Assembly: GCF_050920415.1 (NCBI RefSeq)
Contig: NZ_CP169309.1
DNA length: 64,000 nt
From: Escherichia coli
GTDB lineage: Bacteria; Pseudomonadota; Gammaproteobacteria; Enterobacterales; Enterobacteriaceae
Reading direction: 5' to 3' (one strand)
Each line of letters opens with the position of its first letter. Positions within the stretch are counted from its first letter, which is position 1. The translations under genes and the position numbers were made by a program. This document shows, piece after piece, positions 1,356 to 4,737 of the stretch. Under the pieces are notes generated by a model, which worked only from the letters and a program-made list of their open reading frames with translations, was not told the DNA's origin and did not search any database.

Positions 1356-1595
1356 ATCCATACCTGCCAGAGAGTTCATAAATATCTCGCCAATATCATT
1401 TTGAATCTATGGAGAGAAAAGTACCTTTGTCGAATGCTTAAAGAAAGTGCATTTACGTATCACTTTTATTTTTGCGAGGCGTTTTCCAGATATGATGTAA
1501 CAGTTGCAGTTATTATAAGTTCAAGTAAAACAACCTTGTATTAATACCAGAATAAGGGCATCTGGTTTTTATATTCAAGAATAAAAAATTTTTTG

Positions 1596-1814
1596 TCATT
1601 CCTTATGCTCCTTACACTGATCATCGACCCCCACTGTCTCCCCCTTTTGCCTGCCTCCCTTTGCTTTACGCACCGGGAATTGCTGACGTTCCAGATATTG
1701 CTCTACCGCTTCGCGTAAAATTGCAGATCGTGAAACCTTACGCCAGCCCCTAAGCTTGTTCAGCCGTTTAATTGCCTCTTCTGATAAATGAAGAAAAACC
1801 GTATTCATCGTCAT
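1596..1814 (-). CDS. yiiE: Small ribbon-helix-helix (CopG-like) protein, 72 aa from the MTMNTV start
   Basis: ORF 1596..1823; AGGTGG RBS 5 nt upstream of the internal ATG at 1814; RHH-like N-terminus (LSEEAIKRLNKL...SRSAILREAVEQYL). Confidence 0.7.
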   Translation of the reverse strand: MTMNTVFLHLSEEAIKRLNKLRGWRKVSRSAILREAVEQYLERQQFPVRKAKGGRQKGETVGVDDQCKEHKE

Positions 1815-1823
1815 TGCCACCAC

Positions 1824-4737
1824 CTAACATATATTACTCATTAATGTATGTGCGAAAATTACGCCGAAAAATCATTTAAAAAAAGCGGATTTTTGCATGC
1901 TGTTTTGTTTTTGCGAGACGTTTTCCAGAAATAATAAGAACGTTGCAGTTGTTTCATTTGTTAATCAAAAATGGTTTGGTTATCGCCCAGGATGAGATAT
2001 GGGTGCTATAAATATATTATATTCAGGGATATTTATTTTTTGATTGGGTCTTCATTTGCATAATCTGAATGGTGTACCCGAAAAACGTCAGCATCCTAAC
2101 AGCACCAGGATTTAAGGTGAAATTTAACATCCATCACAGACCGGTCAATGCTGCCACCAACCGGTCTTTACTTGCTCGTCGTTATAATTTTGTGGGTAAC
2201 AGTTCGGGAAACAAGGAATTCCTTCCGGAACACCCCGGTATCATCCGATAGCATTGACGTCAATCATCAGCGCGACGGTGAGTTTTTTTAATCGAATCAT
2301 AGGATGGTAACGTTAAGCACGATTACGGGTCATAGTAAAACTCCTGAGCTGGCGGCACTATGCCGCTTTCACAGGAGTTCTGAATGCTGGTGCTTTCTGT
2401 ATGGCATAACCATGCCCCTCGCGGCTAAGTGCCTGCACACTTCTCTCTTTGTATGTCATTTTTGCAATGCATTGGCCGAATTCTGGTAATTCAAATGAGT
2501 TTTACTCTTCAGACTCCCATCCCTACGGTATACGAGTTAGATTCATGAATGAAATCGACATTTTTAAAAAACGAATCTTGTAAAACATCCGTGTTGATAT
2601 TACCTTGCAAACCAACATTGAATTTGTTAGAGACATGAAGAATTCGAATATCAAACAGGTCTTTTAACATCATTAATTCTTCAGCTGTTAATGACTCGCA
2701 ACTAAAATATCCCTGTTGATCAAAAAGGTTTTCAATTTCTCCACCATAGGCGAGGCGTTTTTCAATGAGTGTTTGCAACATCGAGTTGCCAAGGACAATG
2801 GATATCGTGCGATCTTTCGCAGATTTACACCCCATCACAACGGCAACATTCGTATCCCTCTCAGGAATTTCATTTATCGCCGTCGCTAAAATGGTGGTCA
2901 AACACGCAAACGGAACTGTATTTCTTTCGTGATTTAATTTATCTACCAGTTCATTCCATTTATCAAAAATCGGGCGATATTTGTTGCGCGCAGAAATATC
3001 CAACTGGTTAAACAATTCAGCCATGCGTTTTTTTATCATCTCGATATCCGGCGAGTCAGAAATACTTTTCGCATAATACGGGCCTGATGATGTTGCATAC
3101 ATTAAAGCAGCGCCCACACCTGTCACCATGATAGGTGCAACCACGGTTTTGGCAAAGGCGACGCTGCGATGGCTATGCGCTTCACAGTCTAAAGGAATAT
3201 ATTCCACTGGCTGCGGTAAATCCTGGCATGCCTCCCTCATCATTGCGGTATGTTTTACAAACAACGGTTTTTCATTGCCAAAAAAAACTTTCTGCTTAAT
3301 TGCACTAAGAAAACGCAAATCAAAAATGATTGTTTTTGGTTTATTATTTTTGGGCACATTTCCTATTATCCCGCTAAGAACCTTCCTTGCTGCATGGAGA
3401 TTTTTTTGCACAGCACATAACACAATTGACGAAGCCTTCTCTACTTCGTTATTGATTTTAATTTTAAAATCTGCATGATATACGTTGACGGGCAATGTAA
3501 GTATATCTGGACTTACATCTTTGGCTGAGTATTTATTGGTGATCGACGGTCGTGAATCCACGAGAAAACTTAGCTGCAAATTATGCTCTATATTACCAGC
3601 TGTTTTTGTAGTGTGATTAAACATAGAGATGCCACCTCTCATTCTTTCACACATATCCTCAACTTTTTCACTTCGTTCTTGAGGCAATTTGGCTTTAACG
3701 TTAATTTGATGATTTTTACCCGTGCATTCCTTAACTACAAGGGGAACGTTATCTAAAGCGCCATATAGGTTAATAACGTCACCAGGCTTTTTATCATGTA
3801 AGTAAGTTTGATTAATACTCGAGGCATTCACAAAGAGGTCAATATTATAACTGTTTATAACTTCACCTACATCAAATGTGTAGTGCTTACTCTGGAGGCT
3901 GCCATCCTTATTTAATTGTATATCAATCAATATATCCCCTGACTTTGTCACCATATCTTTGCCATAAACCATTTGCATAGCCATTTCGAGGAGGTTTTTA
4001 TCTAACTGATTGCGGGCGTTGAGTAAGCGACTACCAAATAATTTATATACTGTTCCCGTCATTGCCAGCGCTGCGCTTTCTGTTACTTTGCGTTTCCACA
4101 GTGAGGTTTCTCTATTTTTGAACAGGCCATATTCATTATTACTCGACAACCCGAGTTTCAGTTCGTTAACACAATCGCACAGTTGCTCCTCACCTTCCAT
4201 TTTAAGGCAAAGTGAAAAATGATTTAATAGCGTTTGCTTCGGTGATTCATTACTCGTTAGTTGTTTTTCTAAATTAACAATAGAATAACCTTCTTGTTTA
4301 ATGAGATTAATATTGGCAACCATTACAGCCTCCTTCCCACGGTTTAAGAGCAAACATGCAACATAATTATTTATAACATCCAGAGCAGTAAATGAATGAT
4401 ACTGACAATGATACCAGTCCATTATCTTTGCATAATGTTTGTTAGCTATAGATTTTAAAAATATTTATGAGAAAAGTATGGTACCAGAGGGGGTTTTGGC
4501 TATCAAAAATCGCTCAAACCTGAAGTAAGATGATGAATTAAGCATTATCGGCGATAATTGCCACTCACCTCTACAAATAATATTTAAATGCTCCTGAACA
4601 GTGATGTAGCAAGACACGTATGGTGCCTACGAAGAACAAAAATTTATAGCGTTCTTATTCAATATAACCGGAATAGTCAGGGGCTGATGTAAATGACCTG
4701 AATGAGTGAGAGAGGCTACACCGCCCCTCTCCATCAG
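1824..4737. other. AT-rich accessory islet between yiiE and yiiD carrying one large gene
   Basis: Visibly lower GC than flanking genes; about 2.9 kb between yiiE and yiiD where I recall these genes being consecutive (b3888/b3889) in K-12. Confidence 0.6.
2509..4323 (-). CDS. Putative CX5R phosphatase, inositol-polyphosphate 4-phosphatase / SopB-IpgD-like P-loop (604 aa)
   Basis: Long ORF 2509..4422; strong RBS GGAAGGAGG 5 nt upstream of ATG at 4323; motif VVMGCKSAKDRTISIV about 110 aa from the C-terminus (nt about 2808-2831); no signal peptide; AT-rich codon usage. Confidence 0.6.
   Translation of the reverse strand: MVANINLIKQEGYSIVNLEKQLTSNESPKQTLLNHFSLCLKMEGEEQLCDCVNELKLGLSSNNEYGLFKNRETSLWKRKVTESAALAMTGTVYKLFGSRLLNARNQLDKNLLEMAMQMVYGKDMVTKSGDILIDIQLNKDGSLQSKHYTFDVGEVINSYNIDLFVNASSINQTYLHDKKPGDVINLYGALDNVPLVVKECTGKNHQINVKAKLPQERSEKVEDMCERMRGGISMFNHTTKTAGNIEHNLQLSFLVDSRPSITNKYSAKDVSPDILTLPVNVYHADFKIKINNEVEKASSIVLCAVQKNLHAARKVLSGIIGNVPKNNKPKTIIFDLRFLSAIKQKVFFGNEKPLFVKHTAMMREACQDLPQPVEYIPLDCEAHSHRSVAFAKTVVAPIMVTGVGAALMYATSSGPYYAKSISDSPDIEMIKKRMAELFNQLDISARNKYRPIFDKWNELVDKLNHERNTVPFACLTTILATAINEIPERDTNVAVVMGCKSAKDRTISIVLGNSMLQTLIEKRLAYGGEIENLFDQQGYFSCESLTAEELMMLKDLFDIRILHVSNKFNVGLQGNINTDVLQDSFFKNVDFIHESNSYTVGMGV

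What the first reader, a model, noticed from the sequence alone, without database searches (positions are those of the whole stretch)
1469..1946. Duplicated roughly 43-bp conserved upstream element in front of both RHH genes yiiF and yiiE
The sequence tttttgcgagGcgttttccagaTatGatgtaacagttgcagtt (about 1469-1511) recurs as tttttgcgagAcgttttccagaAatAataagaacgttgcagtt (about 1904-1946), each roughly 100-150 bp upstream of a small ribbon-helix-helix protein gene. Together with the protein similarity this indicates a tandem duplication of gene plus control region. The conserved block contains the near-palindrome AACnGTTGCAGTT, plausible as a shared promoter/operator for autoregulation by the RHH proteins, with possible cross-regulation. 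The function of YiiE/YiiF is poorly defined, and they directly abut the AT-rich islet.
Basis: seen in the sequence. Interest (0 to 1): 0.4.

Follow-up and report, generated by a model that had tools for sequence, protein, structure and literature searches.

The report
Sxy-dependent CRP sites before yiiE/yiiF
The repeated block in front of the two small E. coli genes yiiE and yiiF is real and is most likely a "CRP-S" activator site (bound by CRP with the competence co-factor Sxy) inherited from an old toxin-antitoxin operon, not the genes' own repressor site.

Summary
The repeat is real: 51 nt at 80% identity (1464-1514 and 1903-1953), with a 22-nt core matching at 21/22. There are only two copies in the window and a median of two per E. 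coli genome.

It is not Escherichia-specific. yiiE and yiiF are orphan VapB-type ribbon-helix-helix antitoxins. In Citrobacter, Klebsiella, Salmonella salamae/diarizonae, E. albertii and others, the same slot (fabY...fdhE) holds one RHH gene plus an overlapping PIN (VapC) gene. The window still carries vapC remnants.

In 38 upstream regions the core TTCTGGAAAG-NNN-CTCGCAAAA is nearly invariant at positions 4-9 and 14-22 and variable at 10-13. It lies a fixed 54-55 nt upstream of a conserved TAnnTT -10 hexamer, so its centre is about -70.

On the + strand it reads TGCGA-N6-TTCCA, a 10/10 match to the published E. coli CRP-S motif. It resembles the validated sxy and ppdD CRP-S sites in sequence and orientation.

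The RHH-operator idea is not supported: the block does not change when the RHH DNA-reading strand does, and it lies upstream of the core promoter. Sigma-54, RNA-structure and small-ORF readings were tested and rejected.

No binding or expression data were available. Sinha et al. 2009 could not be read, so prior description is possible.

The parts
1470..1491 (-). 22-bp CRP-S-type site upstream of yiiF (gene strand ATCTGGAAAACGCCTCGCAAAA; + strand core 1473-1488 TGCGAGGCGTTTTCCA)
   Evidence: Perfect match to TGCGA-N6-TTCCA. Coordinates. Conserved in 38 orthologous or paralogous upstream regions.
1909..1930 (-). 22-bp CRP-S-type site upstream of yiiE (gene strand TTCTGGAAAACGTCTCGCAAAA; + strand core 1912-1927 TGCGAGACGTTTTCCA)
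1464..1514 (.).
   Evidence: family D1.
1903..1953 (.). Copy 2 of the 51-nt direct repeat, 80% identical to copy 1
   Evidence: family D1.
1503..1511 (-). AACTGCAAC, the distal part of the repeat, found only in some Escherichia copies (yiiF copy); function unknown
   Evidence: Absent outside Escherichia and from the E. whittamii yiiE region.
1942..1950 (-). AACTGCAAC, yiiE copy
1418..1423 (-). Predicted -10 hexamer of yiiF (TACTTT). It aligns with the conserved TAnnTT column and starts 54 nt downstream of site position 15. Inferred start site near 1411.
   Evidence: Prediction only; no start-site data were found.
1856..1861 (-). Predicted -10 hexamer of yiiE (TAATTT), starting 55 nt downstream of site position 15. 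Inferred start site near 1849.
   Evidence: Prediction only.
1137..1379 (-). yiiF: an orphan VapB-type RHH antitoxin homolog (80 aa from the ancestral start; K-12 annotates 72 aa from 1355)
   Evidence: 69-71% identical to the VapB proteins of S. salamae and C. farmeri, which are followed by a PIN gene.
1596..1814 (-). yiiE: a diverged paralog of the same antitoxin with an RHH_1 domain; its C-terminal toxin-binding tail has decayed
   Evidence: Pfam RHH_1 at 1.7e-11.
1377..1397 (-). Leader/SD element of yiiF. It corresponds to TGATATAC-TGGAG-GTATAT-ATG in other genera. A candidate RHH operator by inference only.
1827..1851 (-). yiiE-type leader inverted repeat ACATAcattaatgagtaataTATGT, which replaces the YiiF-type element
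834..905 (-). 3' remnant of the vapC (PIN) gene
   Evidence: tblastn against the C. farmeri PIN protein, E 3e-6; blastn against E. albertii.
911..964 (-). 5' remnant of vapC, frameshifted
   Evidence: blastn 82% identity to the E. albertii vapC 5' end; short tblastn fragments.
953..1092 (.). Probable REP-type repeats (inferred from the Rfam families matched) lying between yiiF and the vapC remnants
   Evidence: Rfam hits ES036 and naRNA4.
1569..1593 (.). Distal patch of the duplicated unit; its partner is 2017-2041 (76% identical)
   Evidence: family D4.

Best explanation
Each copy of the block is a CRP-S site: a low-affinity, asymmetric binding site for the cAMP receptor protein that needs the co-activator Sxy (TfoX). 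It sits about 70 bp upstream of the transcription start of a weak sigma-70 promoter, which has a conserved TAnnTT -10 hexamer and a poor -35.

Proposed mechanism (inferred): when Sxy and cAMP are present, CRP-Sxy binds TGGAA-N6-TCGCA and recruits RNA polymerase through the alpha C-terminal domain (class I activation). This switches on yiiF and yiiE, which are otherwise silent and H-NS-bound.

The site did not arise in E. coli. It belongs to the promoter of an old chromosomal vapBC (RHH antitoxin plus PIN toxin) operon next to fdhE, found across Enterobacteriaceae. In Escherichia the antitoxin gene and its promoter were duplicated in tandem and vapC decayed, which left two orphan RHH genes each carrying the site.

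Shown here: the sequence match, the conservation pattern, the fixed spacing and the vapBC ancestry. Inferred: CRP/Sxy binding, the start site and the direction of regulation.
For: 1. The + strand reads TGCGAGGCGTTTTCCA (1473-1488) and TGCGAGACGTTTTCCA (1912-1927). Both are 10/10 matches to the E. coli CRP-S motif 5'-TGCGA-N6-TTCCA-3' quoted from Sinha 2009 in PMC6728893. They are the only perfect matches in 64 kb.

2. Validated K-12 CRP-S sites fetched here are sxy TTTCGGAAAGAGCCTCGCAAAT and ppdD TTCTTCGTAACGCCTCGCAAAT, against K-12 yiiE TTCTGGAAAACGCCTCGCAAAA. All share CCTCGCAAA, and the ppdD spacer AACGCC is identical. The orientation is the same as at Psxy, with the TGCGA half nearest the promoter.

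3. Enterobacterial CRP-S half-sites have C6 or G6 and never T6 (PMC1635313). This site has G6 in one half and C6 in the other.

4. In 38 upstream regions, positions 4-9 and 14-22 are 92-100% conserved, while positions 10-13 vary. That is the pattern expected for a CRP-type two-core site.

5. The distance from site position 15 to the conserved TAnnTT hexamer is 54 or 55 nt in 36 of 38 sequences, although the sequence in between is poorly conserved. The centre therefore falls at -69.5/-70.5. Class I positions are near -62, -72, -83 and -93, and CRP-S promoters are class I-like.

6. Toxin-antitoxin operons are known members of Sxy regulons: hicAB P1, higBA and chpSB in E. coli, and toxTA in H. 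influenzae (PMC11951105).

7. A third copy, TGGAAAGCGCCTCGCA, precedes another toxin-antitoxin-like pair in E. albertii and E. fergusonii.

8. vapBC ancestry rests.

9. The absence of these genes from the CRP target lists that would have surfaced in the yiiE/yiiF full-text search fits a site that CRP alone binds poorly.
Against: No binding, expression or start-site data for yiiE or yiiF were available. Three supplement searches found nothing. The Sxy microarray paper is not held.

The distal half TGGAA lacks G7, a base CRP contacts directly.

Whole-22-mer identity to the sxy and ppdD sites (16/22 in this strain) is no better than the best chance match in a 128-kb search space. The case therefore rests on the core motif, the conservation pattern and the spacing.

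The -70 position depends on a predicted -10 hexamer.

Other known CRP-S promoters examined (hofM, ybaV, ppdA, hicA) showed no exact TGCGA core in the stretches taken, so the motif is loosely defined.
Confidence: 0.75

Rival explanations
1. The block is the operator where the RHH proteins (YiiE, YiiF, or ancestrally VapB/VapBC) bind to repress their own promoters, with cross-regulation between the two genes.
For: RHH antitoxins commonly autoregulate (established knowledge). The block accompanies the RHH gene in all orthologous loci, and in a degenerate form in Cedecea, where the flanking genes differ. It has two conserved sub-blocks about one helical turn apart.
Against: The block is the same upstream of YiiF-type (GRILLDLS) and YiiE-type (NTVFLHLS) proteins. 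A different element next to the ribosome-binding site changes together with the RHH type. The block is centred about 70 bp upstream of the inferred start, outside -35/-10/+1. The two sub-blocks are not repeats of each other. The block fully matches another known motif.
Confidence: 0.1
2. The block is the binding site of some other host transcription factor, for example a response regulator reading the 11-bp-spaced direct repeats CTnGnAA, rather than CRP-Sxy.
For: The conserved two-part architecture and fixed phasing show only that a protein binds one face of the DNA. The distal half is a poor CRP half-site.
Against: No known motif other than CRP-S was found to fit; LacI-type, PurR, TyrR, PhoB, Ada and LexA were compared by eye from memory. 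The promoter-proximal half plus flank, TCGCAAA, is identical to the sxy and ppdD sites.
Confidence: 0.08
3. The block is a sigma-54 (-24/-12) promoter, TGG-N8-TCGCA, with the correct GG-N10-GC spacing.
For: The spacing and the invariant GG and GC dinucleotides fit. It is the most upstream conserved element.
Against: A weight matrix built from 50 ChIP-verified sites scores the two copies at 3.7 and 5.25 bits. The lowest true site scores 7.95, and the copies rank 354th and 196th in the window, while a glnAp2-like site ranks second. There is no sigma-54 ChIP-seq site near yiiE/yiiF in K-12 and no RpoN genomic-SELEX peak. The invariant AAA after GG is not a sigma-54 feature.
Confidence: 0.03
4. 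The similarity is only a leftover of a recent duplication or gene conversion, with no function. Alternatively it encodes something else: an RNA structure in the leader, or the small + strand ORFs 1401..1544 and 1897..1995.
For: The distal 9-nt part is shared only by some Escherichia copies and could be residual similarity. The two + strand ORFs share FCExFSR..VAV.
Against: The core is conserved across about ten genera in which the flanks are not. The consensus RNA fold is -0.79 kcal/mol with three pairs and no covariation. Rfam finds nothing at the block. Every nucleotide difference between the two ORFs changes an amino acid, by codon inspection.
Confidence: 0.03

Closest known systems
CRP-S sites of E. 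coli (Sxy-dependent CRP sites), e.g. at the sxy, ppdD, sbmC and hicAB P1 promoters
   Same: The core is TGCGA-N6-TTCCA at 10/10. The two half-sites are asymmetric, with no T at position 6. The flanks are T-rich on the 5' side and A-rich on the 3' side, as at sxy and ppdD. The TGCGA half is nearest the promoter, as at Psxy. The site lies upstream of the core promoter at a class I-like distance.
   Different: No experimental evidence of CRP or Sxy dependence exists for this site. It occurs as two tandem paralogous copies. It serves orphan antitoxin genes rather than DNA-uptake genes.
Competence-regulated toxin-antitoxin operons (H. influenzae toxTA; E. coli hicAB P1, higBA, chpSB induced by Sxy)
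   Same: A type II toxin-antitoxin (or TA-derived) operon preceded by a CRP-S site.
   Different: This module is VapBC-type (RHH plus PIN). It is vertically conserved at one chromosomal slot across Enterobacteriaceae. In E. coli the toxin is lost.
Autoregulatory operators of RHH antitoxins (e.g. FitAB, ParD, RelB; recalled from general knowledge)
   Same: A cis element upstream of an RHH antitoxin gene.
   Different: Those operators are repeats or palindromes that overlap -35/-10/+1 and match their cognate protein. This block is asymmetric, lies at about -70, and does not change with the RHH type.
Sigma-54 -24/-12 promoters
   Same: GG-N10-GC spacing.
   Different: The matrix score is below all 50 verified sites, and there is no sigma-54 binding in K-12 ChIP-seq or genomic SELEX.

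Membership tests
CRP-S site (Sxy-dependent CRP site) | CRP-type layout: two 5-bp cores separated by 6 bp within 22 bp | tested here: met
   TGGAA-N6-TCGCA in both copies. Conservation falls on positions 4-9 and 14-22, with variable positions 10-13, in 38 sequences.
CRP-S site (Sxy-dependent CRP site) | C at position 6 (G at 17) in at least one half, and no T6 in either half in enterobacteria | tested here: met
   The halves are TGCGA (C6) and TGGAA (G6). The rule is quoted from PMC1635313.
CRP-S site (Sxy-dependent CRP site) | E. coli asymmetric consensus TGCGA-N6-TTCCA | tested here: met
   10/10 in both copies; these are the only two perfect matches in 64 kb.
CRP-S site (Sxy-dependent CRP site) | Class I position relative to the start site (near -62, -72, -83 or -93) | tested here: inconclusive
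   The centre is -69.5/-70.5 relative to a start inferred from a conserved TAnnTT hexamer. The spacing is fixed at 54-55 nt in 36/38 sequences. No mapped start site was found.
CRP-S site (Sxy-dependent CRP site) | Weak specific binding by CRP; activation that requires CRP, cAMP and Sxy | not testable with these tools
   This needs gel shift or footprinting and expression assays. The Sxy microarray paper (Sinha 2009, PMC2725579) is not held.
RHH antitoxin autoregulatory operator | Repeated or inverted subsites that overlap the core promoter | tested here: not met
   The two halves are not repeats of each other, and the centre is about -70, upstream of the -35 region.
RHH antitoxin autoregulatory operator | The operator sequence changes together with the DNA-reading beta-strand | tested here: not met
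   The core is the same for GRILLDLS (YiiF-type) and NTVFLHLS (YiiE-type) loci, while the leader element differs between them.
RHH antitoxin autoregulatory operator | Binding by the cognate RHH protein | not testable with these tools
   Needs gel shift or footprinting.
Sigma-54 promoter | GG-N10-GC spacing | tested here: met
   TGG-N8-TCGCA.
Sigma-54 promoter | Score within the range of verified sites, and sigma-54 occupancy | tested here: not met
   3.7 and 5.25 bits against a minimum of 7.95. No ChIP-seq or genomic-SELEX peak at yiiE/yiiF in K-12.
Dispersed repeat family (REP/ERIC/MITE-like) | Many copies per genome in unrelated contexts | tested here: not met
   Two copies in the window. 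In 5,413 E. coli genomes the range is 1-4 with a median of 2, nearly all on the chromosome.
VapBC type II toxin-antitoxin module (the genes served by the block) | An RHH antitoxin gene followed by an overlapping PIN toxin gene | tested here: not met
   This is met in E. albertii, Citrobacter, Salmonella salamae/diarizonae, Klebsiella and others. In the window only vapC remnants survive, at 834-905 and 911-964, so yiiE and yiiF are orphan antitoxin homologs.

The most novel reading that the evidence does not exclude
A chromosomal vapBC module next to fdhE is an old, vertically inherited member of the Sxy/CRP-S ('competence') regulon across Enterobacteriaceae. In Escherichia its antitoxin was duplicated together with the CRP-S promoter, lost the toxin, and split into two RHH proteins with different DNA-reading strands and different leader elements. 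YiiE and YiiF would then be Sxy-controlled second-tier transcription factors, which would give these two genes of unknown function a testable role.
Probability: 0.3. Interest if true: 0.55.

Novelty: new member of a known kind. Interest (0 to 1): 0.35.

Why it matters
YiiE and YiiF are uncharacterised E. coli regulators, and this work gives both a concrete origin and a testable input signal. Their origin is as orphaned VapB antitoxins of a vapBC module conserved beside fdhE. The input signal is cAMP-CRP plus Sxy.

It adds a conserved VapBC-type module to the short list of toxin-antitoxin operons tied to the competence regulon. It also shows a regulatory site kept nearly unchanged while the coding sequences diverged to 37% identity.

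The practical consequence is modest: a few standard experiments would settle it. Part of it may already be in the 2009 Sxy microarray tables, which could not be read here.

Tried and rejected
**Sigma-54 promoter.** The spacing fits, but a matrix built from 50 ChIP sites scores the copies too low, and there is no ChIP-seq or genomic-SELEX peak.

**Small + strand ORFs across the repeat.** They share FCExFSR..VAV, but every difference changes an amino acid.

**Sigma-70 promoter inside the block.** The consensus scan finds none there. Its only nearby hit, TCGACA-18-TAGATT at 1433..1404, is not the conserved hexamer.

**RNA element.** The consensus fold is -0.79 kcal/mol with no covariation. Rfam gives only REP-derived hits at 953-1092.

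**Other factor motifs compared by eye from memory.** LacI/GalR-type palindrome, PurR box, TyrR box, PhoB box, Ada box, LexA, FadR and MetJ metbox. None is conserved across genera.

**Start-site data.** Supplement look-ups in three papers found nothing for yiiE or yiiF.

**Whole-22-mer identity to the sxy and ppdD sites as a statistic.** It does not discriminate: 16/22 equals the best chance match.

**Plasmid-borne copies.** The enterobacterial 'plasmid' hits look like chromosomal sequence. One (H56) shows the chromosomal gene context and the others are 1-5 Mb records. Distant hits are Rhizobium and Burkholderia CopG-VapC pairs.

**Prior description.** Sinha et al. 2009 is not held. No held paper mentions yiiE or yiiF together with Sxy or TfoX.
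Full report
**Setting.** The window is E. coli. It is 100% identical to strain MFDS1022581 and about 94-95% identical to most E. coli genomes. Coordinates 1-2500 read as follows: the fdhE 3' end (+, to 806), REP-type repeats, yiiF (-, 1137..1379), yiiE (-, 1596..1814), then an AT-rich islet holding a 637-aa ORF.

**The observation.** The repeat finder gives two copies of a 51-nt direct repeat, 1464-1514 and 1903-1953, at 80% identity and 439 nt apart.
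- On the gene strand the core TCTGGAAAACGYCTCGCAAAAA matches at 21/22. It occurs only twice in 64 kb with up to three mismatches allowed, against none expected by chance.
- In K-12 the two cores are identical.
- The proteins are 37% identical, E 3e-11. YiiE carries a significant RHH_1 domain.
- A second collinear patch, 1569-1593 vs 2017-2041, supports a tandem duplication unit of about 440 nt.
- Across 5,413 E. coli genomes the 51-mer is present 1-4 times with a median of 2, nearly always on the chromosome. It is not a dispersed repeat.

**What the genes are.** YiiE homologs are almost confined to Escherichia. At the same chromosomal slot, between fabY and fdhE, other species carry a single RHH gene immediately followed by an overlapping PIN-domain gene. 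These species are E. albertii, Citrobacter farmeri and Salmonella enterica subsp. salamae.

A scan of one genome per species found 35 loci. Twenty-six carry a near-full-length PIN gene, and most lie beside fdhE. The genera include Citrobacter, Klebsiella, Salmonella diarizonae, Kluyvera, Enterobacter, Lelliottia, Trabulsiella, Kosakonia and Franconibacter. NCBI annotates the Citrobacter freundii pair as a CopG-family regulator plus a VapC-family toxin.

The non-Escherichia antitoxins are YiiF-like, 69-71% identical. The E. albertii protein has a YiiE N-terminus and a YiiF C-terminus. In the window, vapC survives only as a 3' remnant (834-905) and a frameshifted 5' remnant (911-964), with REP-type repeats nearby.

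So yiiF is the orphaned antitoxin of a decayed vapBC module. yiiE is a diverged tandem copy whose toxin-binding tail has decayed.

**The block outside E. coli.** Thirty-eight upstream regions were aligned. Three elements are conserved.
1. The block, TTCTGGAAAG-NNN-CTCGCAAAA, about 110 nt before the start codon.
2. A TAnnTT hexamer inside GGTGTAnnTTG, about 45 nt before the start codon. This is the likely -10, and the -35 region is T-rich and poor.
3. An inverted repeat around the ribosome-binding site, TGATATAC-TGGAG-GTATAT-ATG.

Within the 22-mer, positions 4-9 and 14-22 are 92-100% conserved, while positions 10-13 vary freely. The distance from position 15 to the hexamer is 54 or 55 nt in 36 of 38 sequences, although the sequence in between is poorly conserved. 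With a standard start site 7 nt past the hexamer, the block is centred at -69.5/-70.5 and the leader is about 32 nt.

**Identifying the block.** Read on the + strand, the cores are TGCGAGGCGTTTTCCA and TGCGAGACGTTTTCCA. The E. coli CRP-S motif of Sinha et al. 2009, as quoted in PMC6728893, is 5'-TGCGA-N6-TTCCA-3'. It has one conserved half and one less conserved half, and either orientation works. Both copies match at 10/10 and are the only perfect matches in the window.

I fetched validated K-12 CRP-S promoters for comparison:
- sxy: TTTCGGAAAGAGCCTCGCAAAT
- ppdD: TTCTTCGTAACGCCTCGCAAAT
- K-12 yiiE: TTCTGGAAAACGCCTCGCAAAA

All share CCTCGCAAA. The ppdD spacer is identical to the yiiE/yiiF spacer. 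As at Psxy, the TGCGA half is nearest the promoter.

Three further points from the literature fit:
- Cameron and Redfield note that enterobacterial CRP-S half-sites have C or G at position 6, never T. Here one half has G6 and the other C6.
- CRP-S promoters work like class I promoters, with sites near -62, -72, -83 or -93.
- Toxin-antitoxin operons are recognised Sxy targets: hicAB P1, higBA, chpSB and H. influenzae toxTA.

A third copy, TGGAAAGCGCCTCGCA, lies about 139 nt upstream of a 103-aa ORF. That ORF is followed by a 96-aa NadS-family HTH protein, also weakly MqsA-antitoxin-like, a toxin-antitoxin-like arrangement, in E. albertii. The same site occurs in E. fergusonii.

**Why not the RHH operator.**
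- The DNA-reading beta-strand differs between YiiF-type (GRILLDLS) and YiiE-type (NTVFLHLS) proteins. The block stays the same upstream of both, including in E. albertii and E. whittamii, which have only the YiiE type.
- The leader element does change with the protein type. It is the GATATAC/GTATAT repeat in YiiF-type loci and ACATA-N15-TATGT in YiiE-type loci. That makes the leader element the better operator candidate, by inference only.
- The block also lies outside the core promoter.

**Other readings tested.**
- Sigma-54: the GG-N10-GC spacing fits. A matrix built from 50 ChIP-verified sites scores the copies at 3.7 and 5.25 bits, below the lowest true site (7.95), while the same matrix ranks a glnAp2-like site second in the window. 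Neither ChIP-seq nor RpoN genomic SELEX in K-12 lists a site at yiiE or yiiF.
- RNA: the consensus fold of the block-to-start region is -0.79 kcal/mol with no covariation. Rfam finds nothing at the block.
- Small + strand ORFs: every difference between them changes an amino acid.

**Limits.**
- There are no binding, expression or start-site data. Supplement searches found none.
- The distal half lacks the G7 base that CRP contacts.
- Whole-22-mer identity to known sites is not significant on its own.
- The literature adds only that yiiE is H-NS-bound and rises 2.5-fold on SlyA overexpression.
- Sinha et al. 2009 is not held, and no held paper links yiiE or yiiF with Sxy. I cannot tell whether these two promoters are among the 34 CRP-S transcription units I recall that paper reporting. 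I think it quite possible that they are.

**Verdict.** The duplication and the claim of a shared control element are supported, but the proposed autoregulatory operator is not. The block is best explained as a pair of CRP-S sites inherited from an ancestral vapBC promoter (confidence about 0.75). It is a new, or possibly already listed, member of a known kind, of moderate interest.

Noticed in passing
window 2509-4422 (-): An intact 637-aa ORF sits in the AT-rich islet between yiiE and fabY. It has no Pfam, NCBIfam or PDB match, and its homologs are all Escherichia/Shigella 'hypothetical proteins'. It contains C-K-S-A-K-D-R-T, a CX5R(S/T) signature that recalls the SopB/IpgD phosphatase motif (from memory only, not tested). 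K-12 keeps only a short 5' fragment of the ORF (L001 from ~2851). The identical genome NZ_CP169399.1 annotates it as a 'transposase' plus a pseudogene.
   Followed up: partly
window 834-905 and 911-964 (-); REP-type repeats 953-1092: Remnants of a PIN-domain vapC toxin gene lie between fdhE and yiiF, with REP-type repeats nearby that Rfam matches as ES036 and naRNA4. yiiF is therefore an orphan antitoxin.
   Followed up: yes
L003:1203-1218 (E. albertii); L004 and L005:1468-1483 (E. fergusonii); L045:70-85 (E. coli SCPM-O-B-8794): A third CRP-S-like site (TGGAAAGCGCCTCGCA; TGGAAAGCAACTCGCA in L045) lies about 139 nt upstream of a 103-aa ORF followed by a 96-aa NadS/HTH protein in E. albertii, a toxin-antitoxin-like pair. 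Its upstream flank is the ancestral one next to the alpha/beta-hydrolase gene.
   Followed up: partly
L046:2830-2900 (E. whittamii); L047:1501-1545 (E. coli UPEC129): These genomes keep the yiiF-type block but have lost yiiF. In E. whittamii the sequence ...CTGGAAAACGCCTCGC is joined directly to the 3' remnant of vapC, which suggests a microhomology deletion at CGCAAAA/CGCGAAA.
   Followed up: partly
L003:3001-3593 (E. albertii): The E. albertii antitoxin is a chimera: its N-terminal RHH domain matches YiiE and its C-terminal tail is identical to YiiF. It is still followed by an intact PIN gene. This looks like a yiiE-yiiF recombination product, or the ancestral form of yiiE.
   Followed up: partly
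window 25866-25882 (+): TTGGCACAGTTTTCGCT is the second-best sigma-54 matrix score in the window. It differs by one base from the K-12 glnAp2 site listed in PMC4591121 and served as a positive control.
   Followed up: no
window 1851-1867 (-): TCGGCGTAATTTTCGCA scores 10.4 bits with the sigma-54 matrix. It overlaps the predicted -10 region of yiiE. No sigma-54 peak is reported there in K-12, so it is probably a chance match.
   Followed up: partly
L012 (labelled Bacillus coahuilensis), L013 (uncultured Robinsoniella), L032 (Chryseobacterium sp. 18061): These genome records from unrelated phyla carry E. coli- or Citrobacter-like yiiF/vapB loci at 66-91% protein identity, with the same upstream block. 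They are most likely contaminating contigs in those assemblies.
   Followed up: no
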